Below, piece by piece: positions 16,455 to 49,019 of a stretch of 64,000 bases of DNA; the stretch's first letter is position 1, and the number at the start of each line of letters is the position of its first letter. A program made the position numbers and the translations under genes. A model generated the notes under the pieces. The model searched no databases and was not told the origin of the DNA. It saw nothing but the letters and a program-made list of their open reading frames with translations. This DNA is from a virus. The stretch is from IMG/VR virus record IMGVR_UViG_3300050500_000418. One strand, written 5' to 3'.

Positions 16455-16480
16455 CAGACGCCGCTAACCCGGGTTAGTGT
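16451..16480 (+). promoter_or_regulatory. cassette: -35 TTGACA, CTAACCCGGGTTAG, -10 TAGTGT
   Basis: Consensus -35, exact palindrome, 18-nt spacing; ATGAGCAC at 16488. Confidence 0.7.
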
Positions 16481-25850: not shown

Positions 25851-26140
25851 GCGACGCGATCATCGGCCCCGTGCAACGGAGGGCCCACGGTGACGTACAC
25901 GCCGCTGTGACGTGCATGCTCCACGGCCAGGACGCCGCCGCCCGCGAGATCCTCTTCACCAGCCCCGCCCCCGTCGCGGTCGCGTACGCCGCCGTCGTCG
26001 AGCTGGTCACCGCCATCCAGACGCTGGGCGAGGTGACGGCCAGCGATCCCAAGGAGGGATGGGCGCTGCTGTGCCAGCACTGGTCCGGCGACCCCGACAC
26101 CGGAGGGCCAGGGTTGACCGAACCCGCTAACCCGGGTTAG
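25847..26140 (+). CDS. hypothetical protein
   Basis: ATG 25847 (ATGA overlap) in frame of ORF-track 25760..26140; reads through next -35 and stops at palindrome TAG. Confidence 0.55.
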   Translation: MSDAIIGPVQRRAHGDVHAAVTCMLHGQDAAAREILFTSPAPVAVAYAAVVELVTAIQTLGEVTASDPKEGWALLCQHWSGDPDTGGPGLTEPANPG

Positions 26141-26143
26141 TAT
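26114..26143 (+). promoter_or_regulatory. cassette: -35 TTGACC, CTAACCCGGGTTAG, -10 TAGTAT
   Basis: Near-identical to copy at 16874; ATGAGCAC at 26150. Confidence 0.7.
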
Positions 26144-29545: not shown

Positions 29546-31197
29546 GGACCTGGACGAGCCCGGCCGGCATCGCGTACGAGGACGTGCAAACGGGCGACGG
29601 GCGCATCTTCGTCGCCGGGTGCTTCTACTGGGACGACCCCGGGCAAGGCTGGCCCCACCGCCTCGACATCGAAGACGACGGGTGGCACGACGGGGCCCTC
29701 CTCATCGGGACCATCCGCACCATGGAACGCCGCGGCGACGGGACCATCGGCGCCGAGGGGTGGATGGACGACGAGACGACGGCCGGCATGGTCGCCGCCC
29801 GGATGCACGACCAGGGCATGCCCCTGGGCGTCTCCGTGGACCTCGACGACATGGCAGTCGAGTTCGTGGCCACCGACCTCGAGGAACCCGAGTCCGAGGA
29901 GGAGATGAGCGTGGTGTACGCCGCGCAGGGCCTCACCGCCTCGGCCATCTTCACCGACACCGGCGAGCTCCACTCCCTGAGCATCCCGGGCCTGCGCGGC
30001 GTCCTCGCCGCCGCCGGCATGGAGGGACTCCTCGCAGCGGCCGGCGACGGGGACCCCGACGACGGCGTCGTCATGTGGGCCGACTCCATGGACTCCATGA
30101 TCATGCGCTGCACCCGCGCTCGCATCCGCGGCCTCACCGAGGTGCAGATCCCCGCCTTCGCGCGGGCGGCCCTCCTCTACGCCGACGCCGGCGCCCCCGC
30201 CGACGACAGCGCACCCGAGGATGAGCCGGCCGTCGAGGAAGGCGACGGTGACGCCTCGGTGCGCGTCACCCACGAGCCCGCCCCGGAGACCACGGCCACG
30301 GGGTGCGGAGGTGAGTGTGGCTGCGGAGGTGATTGCGACGGTCAAGCCCTCGCCGCCGCGGCCACCACCTCCACCATCCCCGTGCGTCCCCCGGCCGCCT
30401 ACTTCACCGACCCGGGCTTCAGCAACGACGACGTCATCACTGTGGAGGACCCCGACACGGGCCGCACCCTGCGCGGCGTCCCGATGCAGTACCTCCCCTC
30501 CGGTGAGGTCCTGGGGCACATCGCCATGTGGGGCCAGTGCCACACCGGCTCCCCCTCCGGGCAGTGCGTCCTCACGCCCCACTCAGCATCCGGGTACCGG
30601 TGGTTCCAGCCCGGCCACATCGAGCTCGATGACGGGACCCTCCGCCCCAGCGGCAACCTGACGCTGGGCGGCGGCCACGCCGACGTCATGCTCTCCTACC
30701 GGGCCGCCCTCAACCACTACGACGACGTGAGCACCCAGGCCGCCCAGATCACAGCAGGCGAGGACCGCTACGGCGTATGGGTCCACGGCGCGGGCCTCCC
30801 GGACGTGTGGGACAACGAGCTGACCATGCGCAAGCTCCGGGCCGCCAGCCCCTCAGGGGACTGGCGATGGATCGGCGGCACCCTGGAGCTGATCATCGCC
30901 CACTGCGTCAACGGCCCCGGCTTCCCTGTTCCCCGCGCGCAGGTCGCATCGGGCGGGACCGTCACAGCCCTCGTCGCCGCGGGCGCCCGGGACATGGCAC
31001 TCCTCGCCGCCGCTGCACGAGGCGAGGCGGACCCGGCCGCCGCTCTGGCAGCGGAGGTCCGCGAGGCCATCGCCGCTGGCATCGCTGACGGCGTAGGCCA
31101 GGTGCTGGGAGCGCAGAGGGCACGCGAGACCGCCGACGCTCGGCGACGCCTCCTCGCCTCCCGCCGCGATCGCGTAGTGGCCAGCCTCAAGGGCTAG
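29542..31197 (+). CDS. prohead (capsid maturation) protease, HK97-type, with long C-terminal extension
   Basis: ATG 29542 (ATGA overlap) in frame of ORF-track 29491..31197; ..GWHDGALLIGTI.. and ..PLGVSVDLDD.. resemble His/Ser catalytic regions. Confidence 0.55.
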   Translation: MRTWTSPAGIAYEDVQTGDGRIFVAGCFYWDDPGQGWPHRLDIEDDGWHDGALLIGTIRTMERRGDGTIGAEGWMDDETTAGMVAARMHDQGMPLGVSVDLDDMAVEFVATDLEEPESEEEMSVVYAAQGLTASAIFTDTGELHSLSIPGLRGVLAAAGMEGLLAAAGDGDPDDGVVMWADSMDSMIMRCTRARIRGLTEVQIPAFARAALLYADAGAPADDSAPEDEPAVEEGDGDASVRVTHEPAPETTATGCGGECGCGGDCDGQALAAAATTSTIPVRPPAAYFTDPGFSNDDVITVEDPDTGRTLRGVPMQYLPSGEVLGHIAMWGQCHTGSPSGQCVLTPHSASGYRWFQPGHIELDDGTLRPSGNLTLGGGHADVMLSYRAALNHYDDVSTQAAQITAGEDRYGVWVHGAGLPDVWDNELTMRKLRAASPSGDWRWIGGTLELIIAHCVNGPGFPVPRAQVASGGTVTALVAAGARDMALLAAAARGEADPAAALAAEVREAIAAGIADGVGQVLGAQRARETADARRRLLASRRDRVVASLKG

Positions 31198-31202
31198 GAC
31201 TA

Positions 31203-31220
31203 CAAGGGCCAACGGCCCCA
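31203..31220 (+). repeat. direct repeat CAAGGGCCAACGGCCCC(A); partner at 31371-31388
   Basis: 17/18 match with one indel; the pair flanks the terminator and promoter cassette. Confidence 0.6.
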
Positions 31221-31237
31221 TCCATACCCCCACAAGC

Positions 31238-31267
31238 CCGGCCCCCGCCCCACCAGGCGGGGGCCGG
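31238..31267 (+). terminator. intrinsic-terminator-like hairpin after protease gene
   Basis: 12-bp perfect stem CCGGCCCCCGCC/GGCGGGGGCCGG, 6-nt loop. Confidence 0.55.
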
Positions 31268-31332
31268 CACGCGTCCGCAGCCCCTGCGACCTGCCCAAAC
31301 AAACCCGGGTTAGAAAAGTTCCGCCCAAACGC

Positions 31333-31362
31333 TTGACCTGCTGCGCTAACCCGGGTTAGTGT
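31333..31362 (+). promoter_or_regulatory. cassette: -35 TTGACC, CTAACCCGGGTTAG, -10 TAGTGT, with no start codon after it
   Basis: Exact palindrome 31346-31359; 18-nt spacing; expected start-site region CTCTCTTGCAAGG has no ATG/GTG. Confidence 0.65.
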
Positions 31363-31751
31363 CTCTCTTGCAAGGCCAACGGCCCCCCGGGGCCACCGGC
31401 CCCCGGTCCTTGAAAACTGAACCAACCGCCTGGCCAGTGGCCGGGCAGCCCGCAAGGTGGGCCACCGCCGACGCCATGAGCGTGCCGGGGAGCGGAGCCA
31501 CATCTTCGAGGGAACCATCGCTCAGCCCACGGGCTGGGGGGACTCCCCGGTACCTGCCCGGCCACAACGGCCAGCGACCACCCCTGGGGTAGTGAACCCA
31601 GCCGCGAGGCTGGGGAGGCACGACCTGCGGGAGCCCCACTAGCAACACCGGTGGGTGTCTGATCCCAGGGGAGGTCACACCATCGTTGAGGTGGTAGTCG
31701 GAGCACCGGCCATCCGCCGGGACCGCCGGCCATGACGCCTCAACCAAATCG

Positions 31752-31834
31752 CCGGAAGATGCGGGTTCGACTCCCGTCCAGTCCACAACGAGGGCTGGTA
31801 GCTCAACGGTCAGAGCACCGGGTTTCTTGTTCGG
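31752..31834 (+). ncRNA. circularly permuted tRNA-like module inside the large RNA
   Basis: Order: T-arm GCGGG-TTCGACT-CCCGT, CCAGTCC, 7-nt loop, GGGCTGG (7 complementary pairs incl. one G-U), D-arm GCTC-AACGGTCA-GAGC, then CCGGG-TTTCTTG-TTCGG hairpin. Confidence 0.55.
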
Positions 31835-32170
31835 TGAGAGCGGCCAACCACATGGGTGGCCCGCCGCTCGCCCAGGGTTCTACGTGGCCAACGCCTGGCT
31901 CCCTGGCACCGAACATCCCTCCGCCGGCCGCTGCCTGGATCCGCCTCCCAGGCGGCGGCCGCCGGCACACCTCCACCACGCCTCGCCCCCCGTGGCAGGT
32001 GGAGGCGACGCGAGGACCCCGGGGGCCGGCCACGCAGAACCGCCACTCGTCGCCGGTCACCGGGGCCTCGACCACCCACCCGCCGCCCGCGGCGGACCGA
32101 CCCTGAGCGCAGGCGCCCTCCGCCCGCCTGGTGATGACCAGCCCCACCCCGCCAGGGCTGTTCAGGGTCG

Positions 32171-32260
32171 GTCCCTGCGGGGGCCGCACCGACTCCGAGA
32201 CTGGCCACCGGACTCCCATCCACGGTCACTGCTCCGGGCTGGTGCGGCCCCCGCAGGGAC
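32171..32260 (+). repeat. 20-bp perfect inverted repeat (long-range helix) within the large RNA
   Basis: GTCCCTGCGGGGGCCGCACC (32171-32190) and its exact reverse complement (32241-32260), 50 nt apart. Confidence 0.8.
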
Positions 32261-32473
32261 GGGACTCCCTGCTCCCAACACGCCGGCCCGATGCCGGCAC
32301 CCGCAATACCAGCGCAGCGGCCGGGCCTCTTCGCCGTAGAGAGGCCCGGCCCTGCGTGGGCGCCACACCCACCCGGCCCCGTTCGAACGCATCGACCACG
32401 GAGGAGCGAGGCCCGGGGCGGCCTTGAACGCAGGGTGTGACGCCCACGCAGGAGGTGCCTGCGCGTGCTCAAA

Positions 32474-32501
32474 GAAGCCCCCGACTCCGGTCGGGGGCTT
32501 C
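32474..32501 (+). terminator. intrinsic terminator
   Basis: 12-bp perfect stem GAAGCCCCCGAC/GTCGGGGGCTTC, TCCG loop, then TTCGCG. Confidence 0.65.
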
Positions 32502-32563
32502 TTCGCGTCCCCGGACGCTCCCGCCTCACGCCCCCTCTCTGAGCCTCGACGGCGTCAAGGTGC

Positions 32564-32593
32564 TTGCACCCGCCGTCACCTACGTCCTACGAT
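32564..32593 (+). promoter_or_regulatory. possible SigA-type promoter without palindrome (TTGCAC-N18-TACGAT) upstream of capsid gene
   Basis: Hexamer match and spacing only; would give an approximately 130-nt leader. Confidence 0.3.
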
Positions 32594-32731
32594 CCCGTCA
32601 GCTTCCAGCCGTCCCTAGGGCGGCTCCGGTAGCGGCCATAGGTCCCGAGGGCCTGCACCGTTCTTGCGTGCGCCCCGAGGATCGCGTCTGGCGTACGCCC
32701 CCACGTACGACCCGAAGCGAGGCCCTTCCGC

Positions 32732-34672
32732 ATGGAAACCCTCATCCAGCTCCTGACCGCCTACGGCGCGTCGGAGGAGATCGTCGCTCTCGCTCAGCGG
32801 CTGGTGGACGCCACCGTCCCCGAGCCGGCCGAGGGTGACACCGAGCCCGAGTCCCGCCTCCTGTCCTGGCAGGGCGACCCCCTGACCGACGCCGAGCTGG
32901 AGACCCTGCGCACCTACCTGGAGGGTCTGGGCGACGACAACGACGCCGAGATCGAACTCCTCGAGGCTGCCCTCGACGGCGTGTCCCGCATCCGCGAGGA
33001 GGAGACCTACCGCGACGCAGCGGCCGAGGCGGCCGCCAGCGAGCGCGAGGACCTCGTCACCCGCCTGCGCGGCGAGCGCGCCGAGGAGGCCGGCGACGAG
33101 GGCGGCGACCCCGCCGAGGGCGACGACGAGGACGAGAACGACGGCGGCGACCCCGCCGAGGGCGACGACCCCGAGGCGACCGACGATGCCGGCGCCGAGG
33201 AGGAGGAAGGGGACCGGGAGCCGGTCCTGGCCGGCGCCGTTCCGGGCCGACGCGTCTCACGCTCCGAGCTGGCCCGCCGCCAGCCCCGCCGCCAGCCCCC
33301 CAACCCGGCCCCGGACCCCGCCGACACGACCACGGCCGCCCTGTCCGACATCGTCTTCGCCGCGGACGTCCCCGAGACGCCCGCCGGTCGCATCACCCAC
33401 ACCCTCGCGGACGTCGACAGGGCGCTGGAGCGTCGCCGCGACGGCTTCCGCCGCACCCACCGAGGCCGCGGCGCGAGCTCGGCCGGCCACTCCAAGGACG
33501 GCGAGGCCGGCCCCCAGGAGTACCTGACGGTCGCGACCGTCATGTCCGACTACCCCGAGAACCGTCGCCTCATGGACGCGGACGGCGAGATGCTGTCCTC
33601 GGCCCAGGTCACCCGCATCATCCGGGAGGCCATCGACGACGGCATCGCGGCGACTCGCGAGCGGGGCGGCATGGTGGCGGCCGGTGGCCTGTGCGCCCTG
33701 CCCACGCCGCTCTACAACGTCGTCACGTACGGCAACCCCCGACGGCCCATCCGGGACCAGGCCCTCGTCAGCTTCCAGGCGGCCCGCGGTGGCGTCACCG
33801 ACCTCACGCCGCCCACCCTGGGCAACATCCTCACGGGCGACGCCGCCGGCCGGGCCATCAGCGAGTGGACCGTGCAGAACGACACGGACGCCACCGCCGG
33901 CACCCCCACCAAGCCGTGCCAGCGCGTCACCTGCGGCGCCCAGCGCACCACCCAGATCTACGCCGTCACCTACTGCCTGACGGTCGGCAACATCCTGGCC
34001 CGGACGTACCCCGAGCTGCAGAACGCCTGGTCCAGCCTGGCGCTCATCGCGCACGCCCGGTTCTCCGAGGCCCTGATGTTCGCCCGCCTCCAGACGCTGG
34101 CGACGACGACGACCAACACGATGACGGACTTCTCCGCGTCGCGGGACGTCCTCACGATCCTCGACCAGACGGCCGCCGGCATGCGCTCGCGGCACCGCCT
34201 GGACGACGACTTCCCCTTCATCGTGATCCTCCCGTCGCTGCTGAACACCATCTTCCGCATCGACATCTCCCGCAGCCTGCCCGGCGGCAGCTTCCAGGAG
34301 AACCTCACGCTGGCCCAGGCGCAGATCAACGCGTGGTTCGCCTCCCGGTTCATCACGCCCGTGTGGTCACCGGACGTGAACACCATCGGCAACCAGGGCG
34401 CGGACACCGCCCTGGCCGCCCTCCCGCCGACCATCAACTACGTGATGTACCCGGCGGGGACCTTCATCCACCTCGACGGCGGCGAGCTGGATCTGGGCGT
34501 CGTGCGCGACACCGCGACCAACGCGGTGAACGACTTCCAGGTCTTCTCGGAGACCTTCGAGAACGTTCACATGGTCGGCCCGGAGGCCATCGACGGGACC
34601 ATCGACGTGTGCCCCTCCGGTGCCGTCGCCGGCACCATCGACCCGGCGCCCTTCTGCGCCTCCTACACCTGA
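32732..34672 (+). CDS. major capsid protein with long acidic N-terminal (scaffold/delta-like) region
   Basis: ORF track; position after protease; first approximately 230 aa Asp/Glu/Ala-rich. C-terminal approximately 400 aa has capsid-like composition. No separate scaffold gene seen. Confidence 0.7.
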   Translation: METLIQLLTAYGASEEIVALAQRLVDATVPEPAEGDTEPESRLLSWQGDPLTDAELETLRTYLEGLGDDNDAEIELLEAALDGVSRIREEETYRDAAAEAAASEREDLVTRLRGERAEEAGDEGGDPAEGDDEDENDGGDPAEGDDPEATDDAGAEEEEGDREPVLAGAVPGRRVSRSELARRQPRRQPPNPAPDPADTTTAALSDIVFAADVPETPAGRITHTLADVDRALERRRDGFRRTHRGRGASSAGHSKDGEAGPQEYLTVATVMSDYPENRRLMDADGEMLSSAQVTRIIREAIDDGIAATRERGGMVAAGGLCALPTPLYNVVTYGNPRRPIRDQALVSFQAARGGVTDLTPPTLGNILTGDAAGRAISEWTVQNDTDATAGTPTKPCQRVTCGAQRTTQIYAVTYCLTVGNILARTYPELQNAWSSLALIAHARFSEALMFARLQTLATTTTNTMTDFSASRDVLTILDQTAAGMRSRHRLDDDFPFIVILPSLLNTIFRIDISRSLPGGSFQENLTLAQAQINAWFASRFITPVWSPDVNTIGNQGADTALAALPPTINYVMYPAGTFIHLDGGELDLGVVRDTATNAVNDFQVFSETFENVHMVGPEAIDGTIDVCPSGAVAGTIDPAPFCASYT

Positions 34673-38326: not shown

Positions 38327-38356
38327 TTGACCTTTCCTGCTAACCCGGGTTAGTGT
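38327..38356 (+). promoter_or_regulatory. cassette: -35 TTGACC, CTAACCCGGGTTAG, -10 TAGTGT
   Basis: Exact palindrome; 18-nt spacing; ATGAGCAC at 38364. Confidence 0.7.
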
Positions 38357-48989: not shown

Positions 48990-49019
48990 TTGACCGAGGC
49001 CCCTAACCCGGGTTAGTGT
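48990..49019 (+). promoter_or_regulatory. cassette: -35 TTGACC, CTAACCCGGGTTAG, -10 TAGTGT
   Basis: Exact palindrome; 18-nt spacing; ATGAGCAC at 49027. Confidence 0.7.

What the first reader, a model, noticed from the sequence alone, without database searches (positions are those of the whole stretch)
31752..31834. Circularly permuted tRNA-like module
Reading 5' to 3', the sequence contains:
- A canonical T-arm, GCGGG-TTCGACT-CCCGT (31761-31777).
- CCAGTCC (31778-31784).
- A 7-nt loop.
- GGGCTGG (31792-31798), which pairs with CCAGTCC at all 7 positions (one G-U).
- TA, then a canonical D-arm, GCTC-AACGGTCA-GAGC (31801-31816).
- A, then a hairpin with a 7-nt loop, CCGGG-TTTCTTG-TTCGG.

These are the elements of a tRNA in permuted order, with the acceptor stem closed by a loop rather than carrying free ends. 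Just upstream of the T-arm, CCGG (31752-31755) followed by 5 nt (AAGAT) could pair with CCGG at 31818-31821. That pairing reproduces the anticodon-stem, variable-loop and T-stem spacing of a tRNA.

A tRNA mimic with a closed acceptor and its ends emerging at the anticodon-stem position is the arrangement described for bacterial and phage Y-RNA-like (YrlA) RNAs. No Ro60/rsr gene is visible in this window. Alternative explanations are remnants of two adjacent tRNA genes or a tRNA-gene-derived recombination scar.
Basis: partly seen in the sequence, partly recalled or inferred. Interest (0 to 1): 0.75.

Follow-up and report, generated by a model that had tools for sequence, protein, structure and literature searches.

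The report
Orphan permuted tRNA mimic in phage
A phage carries a perfectly formed "inside-out" tRNA look-alike, of the kind known from bacterial Y RNAs, but without the Ro protein or the Ro-binding part; it sits as a strain-specific cassette inside a long, highly folded non-coding RNA in front of the capsid gene.

Summary
Window 31752-31821 holds a closing stem (CCGG/CCGG), a T-arm, a 7-bp acceptor closed by a 7-nt loop, and a D-arm. All class-I tRNA tertiary partners are intact.

- **Not two tRNA genes.** ARAGORN and Rfam find none at this site.
- **Matches only the tRNA-like core of YrlA.** The Rfam hit is 33.5 bits against a cut-off of 69. A junction of two real tRNAs scores the same, so I built my own model.
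- **Own model separates it from junctions.** It gives 63 bits, against 35-52 for junctions of two different tRNAs.
- **YrlA membership fails.** There is no GNCGAA motif, no Ro-binding stem, and no Ro60/TROVE/DUF2828 gene in about 82 of 101 kb.
- **Syntenic relatives lack the module.** A 97-99% identical sister strain has a different cassette at that spot.
- **Two unrelated viral contigs carry the same module.** One has a compensatory change in the closing stem, and neither has a Ro gene nearby.
- **Context.** The module lies about 385 nt into a promoter-driven, ORF-free, strongly structured RNA (z = -9.2) between the protease and capsid genes.

Best reading: a Ro-less, mobile tRNA-mimic domain, probably an RNase P/CCA-enzyme substrate. 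The main rival is a neutral relic of a tRNA-array junction.

The parts
31752..31821 (+). Permuted tRNA-like module: closing stem 5' strand CCGG (31752-55), variable loop AAGAT, T-arm (31761-77), acceptor 3' strand CCAGTCC (31778-84), loop ACAACGA (31785-91), acceptor 5' strand GGGCTGG (31792-98), TA, D-arm (31801-16), A, closing stem 3' strand CCGG (31818-21)
   Evidence: Sequence. MFE fold of 31746-31829. Rfam YrlA local hit 31753-31820, 33.5 bits. Own model R1, 63.2 bits. Homologues in L301 and L303.
31685..31744 (+). Upstream hairpin domain ('seg1'), closed by GUUGAGGUG/CGCCUCAAC. It is tRNA-derived: GGTAG-TCGGAGCACCGG equals the module's GGTAGCTCAACGGTCAGAGCACCGG with an 8-nt deletion. L301 and L303 have a comparable 7-bp-closed minihelix in the same position.
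   Evidence: the repeat finder D5/D6. Fold, z = -2.3. Compensatory U31687-A31742 to C-G in sister strain L299. L301/L303 sequences.
31746..31918 (+). Strain-variable cassette of 173 nt, holding the module plus the block-C hairpin (31838-31869). Sister strain L299 has an unrelated 114 nt here. Relative L131 has a copy of domain A instead of 31678-31829.
   Evidence: Pairwise alignments.
31333..31362 (+). Promoter: -35 TTGACC (31333-38), palindrome CTAACCCGGGTTAG (31346-59), -10 TAGTGT (31357-62). Predicted transcript start is about 31368-31370. It is one of about 20 copies of a phage promoter that elsewhere sits 6-8 nt before ATGAGCAC start codons (leaderless genes).
   Evidence: Motif count 26 against 1.7 expected. 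Table of motif-to-start distances. Same motif in relatives.
31430..31574 (+). Structured domain A, closed by an 18-bp helix (CTGGCC-A-GTGGCCGGGCAG / CTGCCCGGCCAC-AAC-GGCCAG).
   Evidence: the repeat finder I13. Fold, z = -3.7. Five pairs with compensatory changes against L131, where the domain lies after B instead of before it.
31576..31677 (+). Structured domain B, 90% identical to L131 5115-5219. Its outer helix has a U-A to C-G compensatory change.
   Evidence: blastn. Folds, z = -3.6 and -4.0. Alignment fold.
31369..32731 (+). Non-coding, highly structured transcript or leader between the protease-like gene (ends 31197) and the major capsid gene (starts 32732). A terminator-like hairpin lies at 32474-32501. 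The next promoter-motif copy is at 38342.
   Evidence: No codon-position GC bias. No Pfam or PHROG hit for any ORF. MFE z = -9.2 against -1.6 for a coding control. Promoter list.

Best explanation
The module is a genuine, structurally intact, circularly permuted tRNA mimic. It has the same architecture as the tRNA-like domain of YrlA RNAs, but it belongs to a small family of Ro-less phage elements, with members in this window, L301 and L303. It most likely arose from the junction of two adjacent tRNA genes in a phage tRNA array.

In this phage it is an accessory, strain-specific cassette. It is plugged into a variable site of a promoter-driven, ORF-free, strongly folded RNA of about 1.15-1.36 kb. 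That RNA precedes the major capsid gene and probably serves as its leader.

How it most likely works (inferred, not shown):
1. The RNA folds into the tRNA L-shape.
2. With a 7-bp acceptor stacked on the T-arm, G+1 and discriminator A, it is recognised by the host's tRNA-handling enzymes.
3. RNase P cuts between A31791 and G31792.
4. The 3' side is trimmed to A31785 and may receive CCA, as shown experimentally for the 7-bp-acceptor YrlA of M. smegmatis.
5. This severs the long RNA into an upstream structured RNA and a downstream capsid-mRNA part. It also creates a two-piece, anticodon-less tRNA mimic carrying G3:U70 and A73, which can engage tRNA-binding proteins.

Shown here: the fold, the tRNA signature, the promoter context, the absence of Ro, and the family with structure-compatible substitutions. 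Inferred: transcription, cleavage, and any partner protein.
For: - Exact anatomy and tertiary-pair set. MFE gives the permuted cloverleaf. Re-permuted halves are called a tRNA.
- Own covariance model: 63.2 bits, against 35-52 for junctions of two different tRNAs.
- No flanking intact tRNAs.
- Two unrelated viral contigs (56% and 62% GC, different gene neighbours) carry the same module. Acceptor plus loop is identical at 20 of 21 nt. Flanks are barely alignable.
- All substitutions in those two contigs fit the structure: closing stem CCGG/CCGG to CCAG/CUGG, T-stem G-U to A-U, D-stem G-C to G-U. Each also has a preceding stem-closed minihelix like seg1.
- The seg1 helix shows a compensatory change between sister strains.
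- A promoter of the phage's own recurrent type lies about 385 nt upstream on the same strand.
- The region is non-coding and exceptionally structured.
[quoted passage not shown] 2014, PMC4201824.
Against: - The module is missing from a 97-99% identical sister strain and from every syntenic relative, so it is dispensable.
- The family has only three members, and the acceptor stem shows no covariation. Recent transfer of a fresh tRNA-junction fragment could look the same.
- A junction of two identical tandem tRNAs scores as high as the module (L072, 68.9 bits). The model therefore cannot separate a mimic from such a junction by itself.
- There are no expression or processing data.
- The thermodynamic z-score of the module alone is ordinary (-1.1).
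Confidence: 0.5

Rival explanations
1. Neutral relic. The module is the surviving junction of two adjacent copies of one tRNA gene (3' half of copy 1, spacer, 5' half of copy 2). It was captured or left behind by illegitimate recombination at the palindromic CCGG of the anticodon stem, and it has no function of its own.
For: - The region carries other scrambled tRNA-derived pieces: seg1 with an 8-nt D-arm deletion and a 20-nt tandem duplication.
- Both module borders are CCGG.
- Spacers of the same type (A-CWACRA) occur between genuine neighbouring tRNAs in phage tRNA arrays (L305-L309).
- A junction of identical tandem tRNAs scores the same under my model (L072).
- The sister strain and relatives lack the module.
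- The 5' half plus CCGGG-TTTCTTG-TTCGG resembles tRNA-Arg(TCT).
Against: - The same break points, closing stem (with a compensatory change), 20/21-nt acceptor plus loop, and preceding minihelix recur in two otherwise unrelated viral contigs. Independent decay would not reproduce this.
- Everything inside the module is intact, while nothing outside it is tRNA-like.
- None of about 170 capsid-gene relatives has a tRNA gene at this position.
Confidence: 0.22
2. Bona fide Y RNA (YrlA). The RNA binds a Ro60 protein, encoded either in the unseen 19 kb of the phage genome or by the host, through a divergent binding site.
For: - Rfam YrlA is the best hit.
- Blastn finds the true YrlA of Gordonia phage Trax, which lies 130 nt upstream of its Ro gene.
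- Of 26 closed-acceptor (at least 6/7) matches in viral contigs, at least 10 have a Ro60 or DUF2828/vWA Ro-like gene in the same locus; L079 also has Ro but falls below the 6/7 threshold.
- Trax YrlA itself lacks a strict GNCGAA motif.
Against: - No GNCGAA motif in 31000-32800.
- Only model positions 23-85 match, in the window, L301 and L303 alike.
- No Ro/TROVE/DUF2828 homologue by tblastn or Pfam in the window plus 8.6 kb to the left and 8.9 kb to the right, nor in L301 or L303.
- The defining rule of 'within 4 kb and on the same strand as Ro60' (PMC4201824) is not met.
Confidence: 0.12
3. A working split or permuted tRNA, or a tmRNA-like RNA. After cleavage in the acceptor loop the two pieces form an alanine-accepting (G3:U70, A73) molecule used in translation or ribosome rescue. 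Alternatively, the halves are joined at the anticodon loop to give tRNA-Arg(UCU).
For: - G3:U70 and A73 are conserved in all three members.
- The gene order equals that of the tRNA-like domain of permuted two-piece tmRNA. There is a weak beta_tmRNA local hit in L303 (17.5 bits, E 0.07).
- A UUCUU stretch is conserved just after the closing stem.
Against: - ARAGORN, which includes permuted tmRNA, finds nothing.
- No tmRNA family hit in the window at E below 5.
- No tag reading frame.
- The canonical D-arm is unlike tmRNA.
- The anticodon stem cannot be completed: G31751 opposite G31822.
- No intron, BHB motif or ligase context.
- L131 keeps blocks B and C contiguous without exons.
Confidence: 0.05
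4. Site-specific recombination scar or attP. The 3' tRNA half is an attachment core, and the neighbouring 5' half was picked up by excision through a neighbouring tRNA copy.
For: Attachment cores often span the anticodon stem to the 3' end of a tRNA (general knowledge). The module starts exactly at that point.
Against: - No integrase in the 82 kb seen.
- The site lies in the middle of the structural operon, inside a transcribed non-coding RNA.
- The same element sits in other contexts in L301 and L303, without an integrase-like ORF among those I scanned.
Confidence: 0.03

Closest known systems
YrlA (Y RNA-like A; Rfam RF02553), especially the M. smegmatis and actinophage forms
   Same: Same permuted order (closing stem, variable, T-arm, closed acceptor, D-arm, closing stem) and tRNA tertiary signature. 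The 7-bp acceptor matches M. smegmatis YrlA, which RNase P cleaves and which receives CCA (PMC4201824). The window is 78% identical over 57 nt to the Trax phage YrlA core.
   Different: It lacks the GNCGAAN0-1G motif, the Ro-binding stem, the 'V' stem-loop and the GGUUG linker. No Ro60 gene lies nearby. It is embedded about 385 nt into a >1-kb structured RNA instead of being a roughly 110-nt sRNA. It is preceded by a separate minihelix domain.
Junctions of adjacent tRNA genes (the known false positive of YrlA searches)
   Same: T-arm of one tRNA, a short spacer, then the acceptor and D-arm of the next. The Rfam YrlA score is the same (32 against 33.5 bits). The same type of spacer is seen in phage tRNA arrays.
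   Different: Neither flanking tRNA exists here. The two acceptor strands pair 7/7. The ends are closed by a stem. The unit is conserved as such in other phages.
tRNA-like domain of permuted (two-piece) tmRNA
   Same: Gene order T-arm, acceptor 3' strand, intervening loop, acceptor 5' strand. G3:U70 and A73 are present.
   Different: It has a canonical D-arm and no pseudoknots or tag ORF. ARAGORN and the Rfam tmRNA models are negative.
Large ornate phage RNAs (GOLLD, ROOL) with tRNAs in or next to variable linkers
   Same: A long, ORF-free, highly structured phage RNA with a tRNA-type element in a variable region (PMC12286853). L301 also holds its module at the 3' end of a 1-kb region with z = -5.5.
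   Different: There is no Rfam GOLLD or ROOL hit. The sequence was found only in this phage, its sister strain and L131. The embedded element is a permuted mimic, not a tRNA gene.
mascRNA/MALAT1-type tRNA-like processing signals; permuted tRNA genes of Cyanidioschyzon merolae
   Same: A tRNA-shaped element inside a long RNA that recruits RNase P. The 3' half lies upstream of the 5' half.
   Different: These are eukaryotic systems. mascRNA is not permuted. The C. merolae genes need a BHB motif, the splicing endonuclease and a ligase, none of which is indicated here.

Membership tests
YrlA / bacterial Y RNA (RF02553) | tRNA-like domain: T-arm, closed acceptor-like stem and D-arm enclosed by a stem | tested here: met
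   Rfam local alignment to model positions 23-85. Own model R1, 63.2 bits. MFE fold.
YrlA / bacterial Y RNA (RF02553) | Score at or above the Rfam gathering threshold (69 bits) with a full-length match | tested here: not met
   33.5 bits, positions 23-85 of 114 only. A junction of two true tRNAs scores 32. The true phage YrlA of Trax scores 44.1 full-length.
YrlA / bacterial Y RNA (RF02553) | GNCGAAN0-1G motif near the 5' end (putative Ro60 contact; PMC4201824) | tested here: not met
   No G.CGAA on the + strand in 31000-32800.
YrlA / bacterial Y RNA (RF02553) | Encoded within 4 kb of, and on the same strand as, a Ro60 (TROVE) gene | tested here: not met
   tblastn with 4 Ro60 and 2 DUF2828 Ro-like queries finds nothing at E below 1 in the window and flanks. 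No TROVE in the Pfam columns. About 19 kb of the 101-kb genome could not be read.
YrlA / bacterial Y RNA (RF02553) | Binding by Ro60/Rsr | not testable with these tools
   Needs immunoprecipitation or a gel shift with host Rsr.
Ordinary tRNA gene(s) | Complete cloverleaf in standard order with an anticodon arm | tested here: not met
   ARAGORN finds none at 31600-31900. The Rfam tRNA model gives only 22.7 bits (cut-off 29) for 31792-31874, with no T-arm.
tmRNA, including permuted two-piece forms | tRNA-like domain plus pseudoknots and a tag reading frame; detected by ARAGORN or the Rfam tmRNA models | tested here: not met
   ARAGORN negative. No tmRNA-clan hit at E up to 5 in 31150-32760.
GOLLD / ROOL large phage RNAs | Match to the Rfam covariance models | tested here: not met
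   No hit at the gathering threshold in the window, nor at E up to 5 in the gap.
Ro-less permuted tRNA-mimic family proposed here (window, L301, L303) | Closing stem of 4-5 bp, T-arm, acceptor CCAGUCC/GGGCUGG closed by ACWACGA, D-arm; preceded by a stem-closed minihelix; substitutions compatible with the structure | tested here: met
   There is one double compensatory pair and two wobble-compatible single changes, and none is disruptive. With only three members the support is thin.

The most novel reading that the evidence does not exclude
Two linked novelties remain possible.

(1) A family of Ro-independent, mobile, permuted tRNA mimics in actinophage-like viruses. After RNase P cleavage these would become two-piece, anticodon-less, G3:U70 tRNA look-alikes. 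They could act as decoys or recruiters for host tRNA-handling or tRNA-targeting proteins.

(2) The host RNA may be a new class of large (about 1.1 kb), modular, ornate phage RNA. Its stem-closed domains (A, B, seg1, the tRNA mimic) are swapped or transposed between close relatives, much as GOLLD carries tRNAs in its linker.
Probability: 0.25. Interest if true: 0.75.

Novelty: new variant of a known kind. Interest (0 to 1): 0.55.

Why it matters
What the tRNA-like domain of bacterial Y RNAs does is still unknown, and it has only been studied as part of Ro60 complexes. A version that travels among phages without Ro60 and without the Ro-binding part would show that the tRNA mimic has a function of its own. 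It offers a minimal, testable substrate for RNase P, the CCA-adding enzyme, AlaRS and tRNA-targeting defence toxins.

The surrounding promoter-to-capsid RNA also matters. It is ORF-free, exceptionally structured, shows compensatory changes and has swappable domains. That makes it a candidate new large structured phage RNA and a possible example of RNA-level control or processing of capsid expression.

If the module turns out to be a relic, the case is still useful as a caution. Rfam YrlA hits of 30-40 bits cannot be told from tRNA junctions without a test of acceptor complementarity.

Tried and rejected
- **Rfam score as evidence for YrlA.** Rejected after the control in Caudovirales GX15bay, where two real tRNAs give 32 bits across their junction.
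- **Flanking genes as Ro60.** The 568-aa ORF upstream is a MuF/protease-like head protein and the 646-aa ORF downstream is the major capsid protein.
- **Close phage relatives.** Megablast of 30500-33500 against cultured phages found nothing. The single-protein scan of IMG/VR found nothing.
- **Profile scans for capsid relatives.** Scans of metagenomes and IMG/VR gave 160 capsid relatives, but all were too distant. None has blocks A or B, the module, or a tRNA in the protease-capsid gap.
- **Exact-pattern scans for block B.** In GTDB genomes there was one chance match in a coding region. In IMG/VR there were none.
- **Coding potential of the gap.** The gene caller's 239-aa minus-strand ORF and seven others have no Pfam or PHROG hit, show junk-like composition, and show no amino-acid-level conservation in L131 beyond the nucleotide identity.
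- **Group I or II intron, or a permuted intron-exon arrangement.** There is no intron model hit, and L131 keeps B and C adjacent without exons.
- **The sigma-70 consensus scanner.** It missed the promoter because its -10 is TAGTGT. The promoter was established from its 20-fold recurrence instead.
- **Reading the rest of the genome.** This was limited to one hop on each side, so about 19 kb remain unseen.

Full report
**1. The observation**

The window is a 71% GC actinophage-like genome segment with nearly all genes on the + strand.
- CCGG, then AAGAT
- T-arm GCGGG-TTCGACT-CCCGT
- CCAGTCC, then the loop ACAACGA, then GGGCTGG (7/7 pairs, G-U at tRNA position 3:70)
- TA, then D-arm GCTC-AACGGTCA-GAGC
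- A, then CCGG

Folded alone, 31746-31829 adopts this permuted cloverleaf as its minimum-energy structure. Read directly, every class-I tertiary partner is present: U8-A14, A15-U48, G18G19/U55C56, C13-G22-G46, A9-A23-U12, T54-A58, G53-C61. When I join the 5' half to the 3' half in silico, ARAGORN calls a tRNA in 121 of 143 junction variants. The two halves are therefore one complete, mutually compatible tRNA body in permuted order. The sequence is identical in three independent assemblies.

**2. Not two tRNA genes, and the Rfam hit alone is not informative**

ARAGORN and Rfam find six tRNAs elsewhere in the window and none here. At a relaxed threshold the best hit is YrlA (RF02553), at 33.5 bits against a gathering score of 69. 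It is aligned only to model positions 23-85, which is the tRNA-like core.

Two controls frame that number:
- In Caudovirales GX15bay, two genuine adjacent tRNAs give 32 bits across their junction.
- A real YrlA beside the Ro gene of Gordonia phage Trax gives 44.1 bits over the full model.

The authors of the family warned about exactly this false positive (PMC4201824). I therefore built my own test.

- A pattern scan of IMG/VR for a T-loop followed by a D-arm gave 120 sites.
- Acceptor complementarity among them is bimodal, with a random peak at 2-3 pairs and a second peak at 7 of 7.
- I built a covariance model from 16 such closed-acceptor modules that overlap no ARAGORN tRNA, plus the Trax YrlA, with the window left out.
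- That model scores the window module 63.2 bits.
- Junctions of two different tRNAs, including this phage's own, score 35-52 bits.
- Only a junction of two identical tandem tRNAs (L072) scores higher, at 68.9 bits.

**3. YrlA membership fails**

The family is defined by a 5' GNCGAAN0-1G motif, the tRNA-like domain, and a location within 4 kb of Ro60 on the same strand (PMC4201824). Against those criteria:
- The motif is absent from 31000-32800.
- The Ro-binding stem of the model is unmatched.
- The neighbouring genes are portal, MuF/protease-like and major capsid.
- tblastn with four Ro60 and two DUF2828/vWA Ro-like proteins finds nothing in the window or in the flanks I could fetch. Those flanks add 8.6 kb to the left and 8.9 kb to the right, so about 82 of 101.3 kb are covered.

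By contrast, of the 26 closed-acceptor matches in IMG/VR with at least 6 of 7 pairs, at least 10 have a Ro60 or Ro-like gene in the same locus. L079 also has a Ro60 gene, but its match pairs at fewer than 6 of 7 positions. This module is therefore an exception to the usual context.

**4. Context: a promoter-driven, non-coding, highly structured RNA**

The 1.5 kb between the protease-like gene (ends 31197) and the capsid gene (starts 32732) shows the following:
- There is no gene-like codon-position GC bias over most of the gap. A 0.88-0.95 third-position signal at 31930-32230 lacks the low second-position GC of real genes.
- Its ORFs have junk-like composition.
- No ORF has a Pfam or PHROG hit.

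At 31333-31362 lies TTGACC, then 17-18 nt containing CTAACCCGGGTTAG, then TAGTGT. This motif occurs 26 times in the window against 1.7 expected. Almost all copies are on the + strand, each 6-8 nt before an ATGAGCAC start codon. It is therefore the phage's own promoter for leaderless genes. Here it fires into the gap. The next copy is at 38342, so the capsid operon has no promoter of this type of its own.

The first 1000 nt of the predicted transcript fold with z = -9.2, against -1.6 for a capsid-coding control of equal length.

A relative, L131 (protease 69% identical in amino acids), shares several features:
- the promoter;
- block B, at 90% nucleotide identity, with a U-A to C-G compensatory change;
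- block A, with five compensatory pairs and a closing helix of different sequence;
- block C;
- a terminator-like hairpin.

In L131 block A lies after B instead of before it. No Rfam family matches, including GOLLD, ROOL, introns and tmRNA.

**5. The module is a strain-specific cassette here**

In L131 the interval between B and C holds a copy of domain A. The module and the tRNA-derived hairpin before it (seg1, 31685-31744) are absent.

A sister strain (L299/L123, same sample) is 97-99% identical through the promoter, A, B and seg1. Its seg1 helix carries a compensatory U31687-A31742 to C-G change. However, window 31746-31918 is replaced there by an unrelated 114 nt.

My covariance model finds nothing in the gaps of any syntenic relative. 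None of about 170 capsid-gene relatives has a tRNA gene at this position. The module is therefore dispensable and recently gained or lost.

**6. The module recurs elsewhere as a unit**

An exact-pattern scan for the closed acceptor found two IMG/VR contigs, L301 (56% GC) and L303 (62% GC). Neither has any other similarity to the window, and their neighbours differ: L301 sits after an endolysin, and L303 sits in a 190-nt spacer between small genes. Both carry:
- the same T-arm;
- the acceptor plus loop CCAGUCC-ACUACGA-GGGCUGG (20 of 21 nt identical to the window);
- the D-arm;
- a closing stem;
- a 7-bp-closed minihelix just upstream, in the position of seg1.

All differences fit the structure:
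- closing stem CCGG/CCGG to CCAG/CUGG in L303;
- T-stem G-U to A-U in L301;
- D-stem G-C to G-U in L303;
- matched one-base shifts on both sides of the closing stem.

Rfam again matches only YrlA positions 23-85/86, at 37-39 bits. No Ro gene and no ARAGORN tRNA is present. In L301 the module also ends a 1-kb region with folding z = -5.5. Three members is thin support, and the acceptor itself shows no covariation. Even so, independent decay would not reproduce the same break points, closing stem and accompanying minihelix.

**7. Origin and mechanism**

The following points suggest an origin from the junction of two adjacent tRNA genes in a phage tRNA array:
- The loop A-CWACGA is of the same type as spacers between true neighbouring tRNAs in phage arrays (L305-L309).
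- The 5' half resembles tRNA-Arg(TCT).
- Both borders are the palindromic CCGG of an anticodon stem.
- seg1 is a scrambled paralogue of the 5' half.

My best explanation (confidence 0.5) is that this junction became a self-contained tRNA mimic that moves between phages. I infer that it acts by tRNA mimicry, because it has the determinants of an RNase P substrate:
- a 7-bp acceptor stacked on a T-arm;
- G+1;
- discriminator A.

The only experimentally studied closed acceptor of 7 bp, in M. smegmatis YrlA, is cut by RNase P and receives CCA (PMC4201824).

Cleavage at G31792 would split the long leader. It would leave a two-piece, anticodon-less mimic with G3:U70 and A73.

The rivals are a neutral relic (0.22), a true Y RNA with Ro encoded elsewhere (0.12), a working split tRNA or tmRNA-like RNA (0.05), and an att-site scar (0.03).

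**8. Verdict**

The YrlA-like architecture is real, but membership in YrlA is not supported. I file it as a new variant of a known kind: a Ro-less, mobile, permuted tRNA mimic, here embedded in a previously undescribed large structured phage leader RNA. Interest is moderate (0.55). It is not yet shown to be functional, but it offers a direct handle on what the tRNA-like part of Y RNAs does.

Noticed in passing
window 31369-32731 (domains A 31430-31574, B 31576-31677); L131 4965-5960; L299 11828-12636: A promoter-to-capsid, ORF-free RNA of about 1.15-1.36 kb with an exceptional fold (z = -9.2) and compensatory changes, matching no Rfam family. Domain A sits before B in the window and after B in L131, where a CGAG-capped stub remains at the window's A site. 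It looks like a modular large phage RNA with transposable stem-closed domains.
   Followed up: partly
window, about 20 sites, e.g. 16466-16480, 26129-26143, 38342-38356, 49005-49019: A recurrent promoter/operator motif, TTGACC-N-CTAACCCGGGTTAGTGT, followed 6-8 nt later by ATGAGCAC. This implies leaderless mRNAs that all begin Met-Ser-Thr, and a palindromic site for a phage regulator (26 matches against 1.7 expected).
   Followed up: partly
L123 255-561 against window about 32494-32511: The sister strain has a 307-nt insertion carrying its own promoter copy and a 76-aa ORF just upstream of the capsid gene, flanked by an 18-nt repeat. The window's strain lacks it, so its capsid operon has no promoter of this type. 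The strain with the tRNA mimic is the one without the capsid promoter.
   Followed up: no
L046 7750-8000 (IMGVR_UViG_3300036780_000119, 100 kb, 68% GC): Two closed-acceptor tRNA-like modules in tandem lie directly downstream of a DUF7873 gene. One has the same CCGG/CCGG closure as the window. No Ro60 was detected in the 14-kb locus. This is another possible Ro-less case.
   Followed up: partly
L014 4644-6098 and L070 6506-7978: Closed-acceptor tRNA-like modules also sit next to DUF2828 + DUF7788 + vWA proteins rather than TROVE-annotated Ro60. This suggests a second, Ro-like protein partner family for YrlA-type RNAs in phages.
   Followed up: no
L301 11150-12149: The L301 copy of the module lies at the 3' end of another 1-kb ORF-poor region with folding z = -5.5 and internal repeats (CAGCTTCCTGCAG at about 11635 and 11750). 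It is unrelated in sequence to the window's leader.
   Followed up: no
source contigs: Two ENA assemblies of 101,343 and 101,344 bp are broken at different points, one at window position about 32403, inside the non-coding gap. This is consistent with a circular or terminally redundant genome of about 101.3 kb. The genome also encodes Gam, an ERF-type recombinase and a DnaC/IstB-like protein to the right of the window.
   Followed up: no
window 31300-31313 and 31346-31359: Two copies of the AACCCGGGTTAG palindrome lie 46 nt apart upstream of the non-coding RNA, one of them outside the promoter. This may be a double operator.
   Followed up: no
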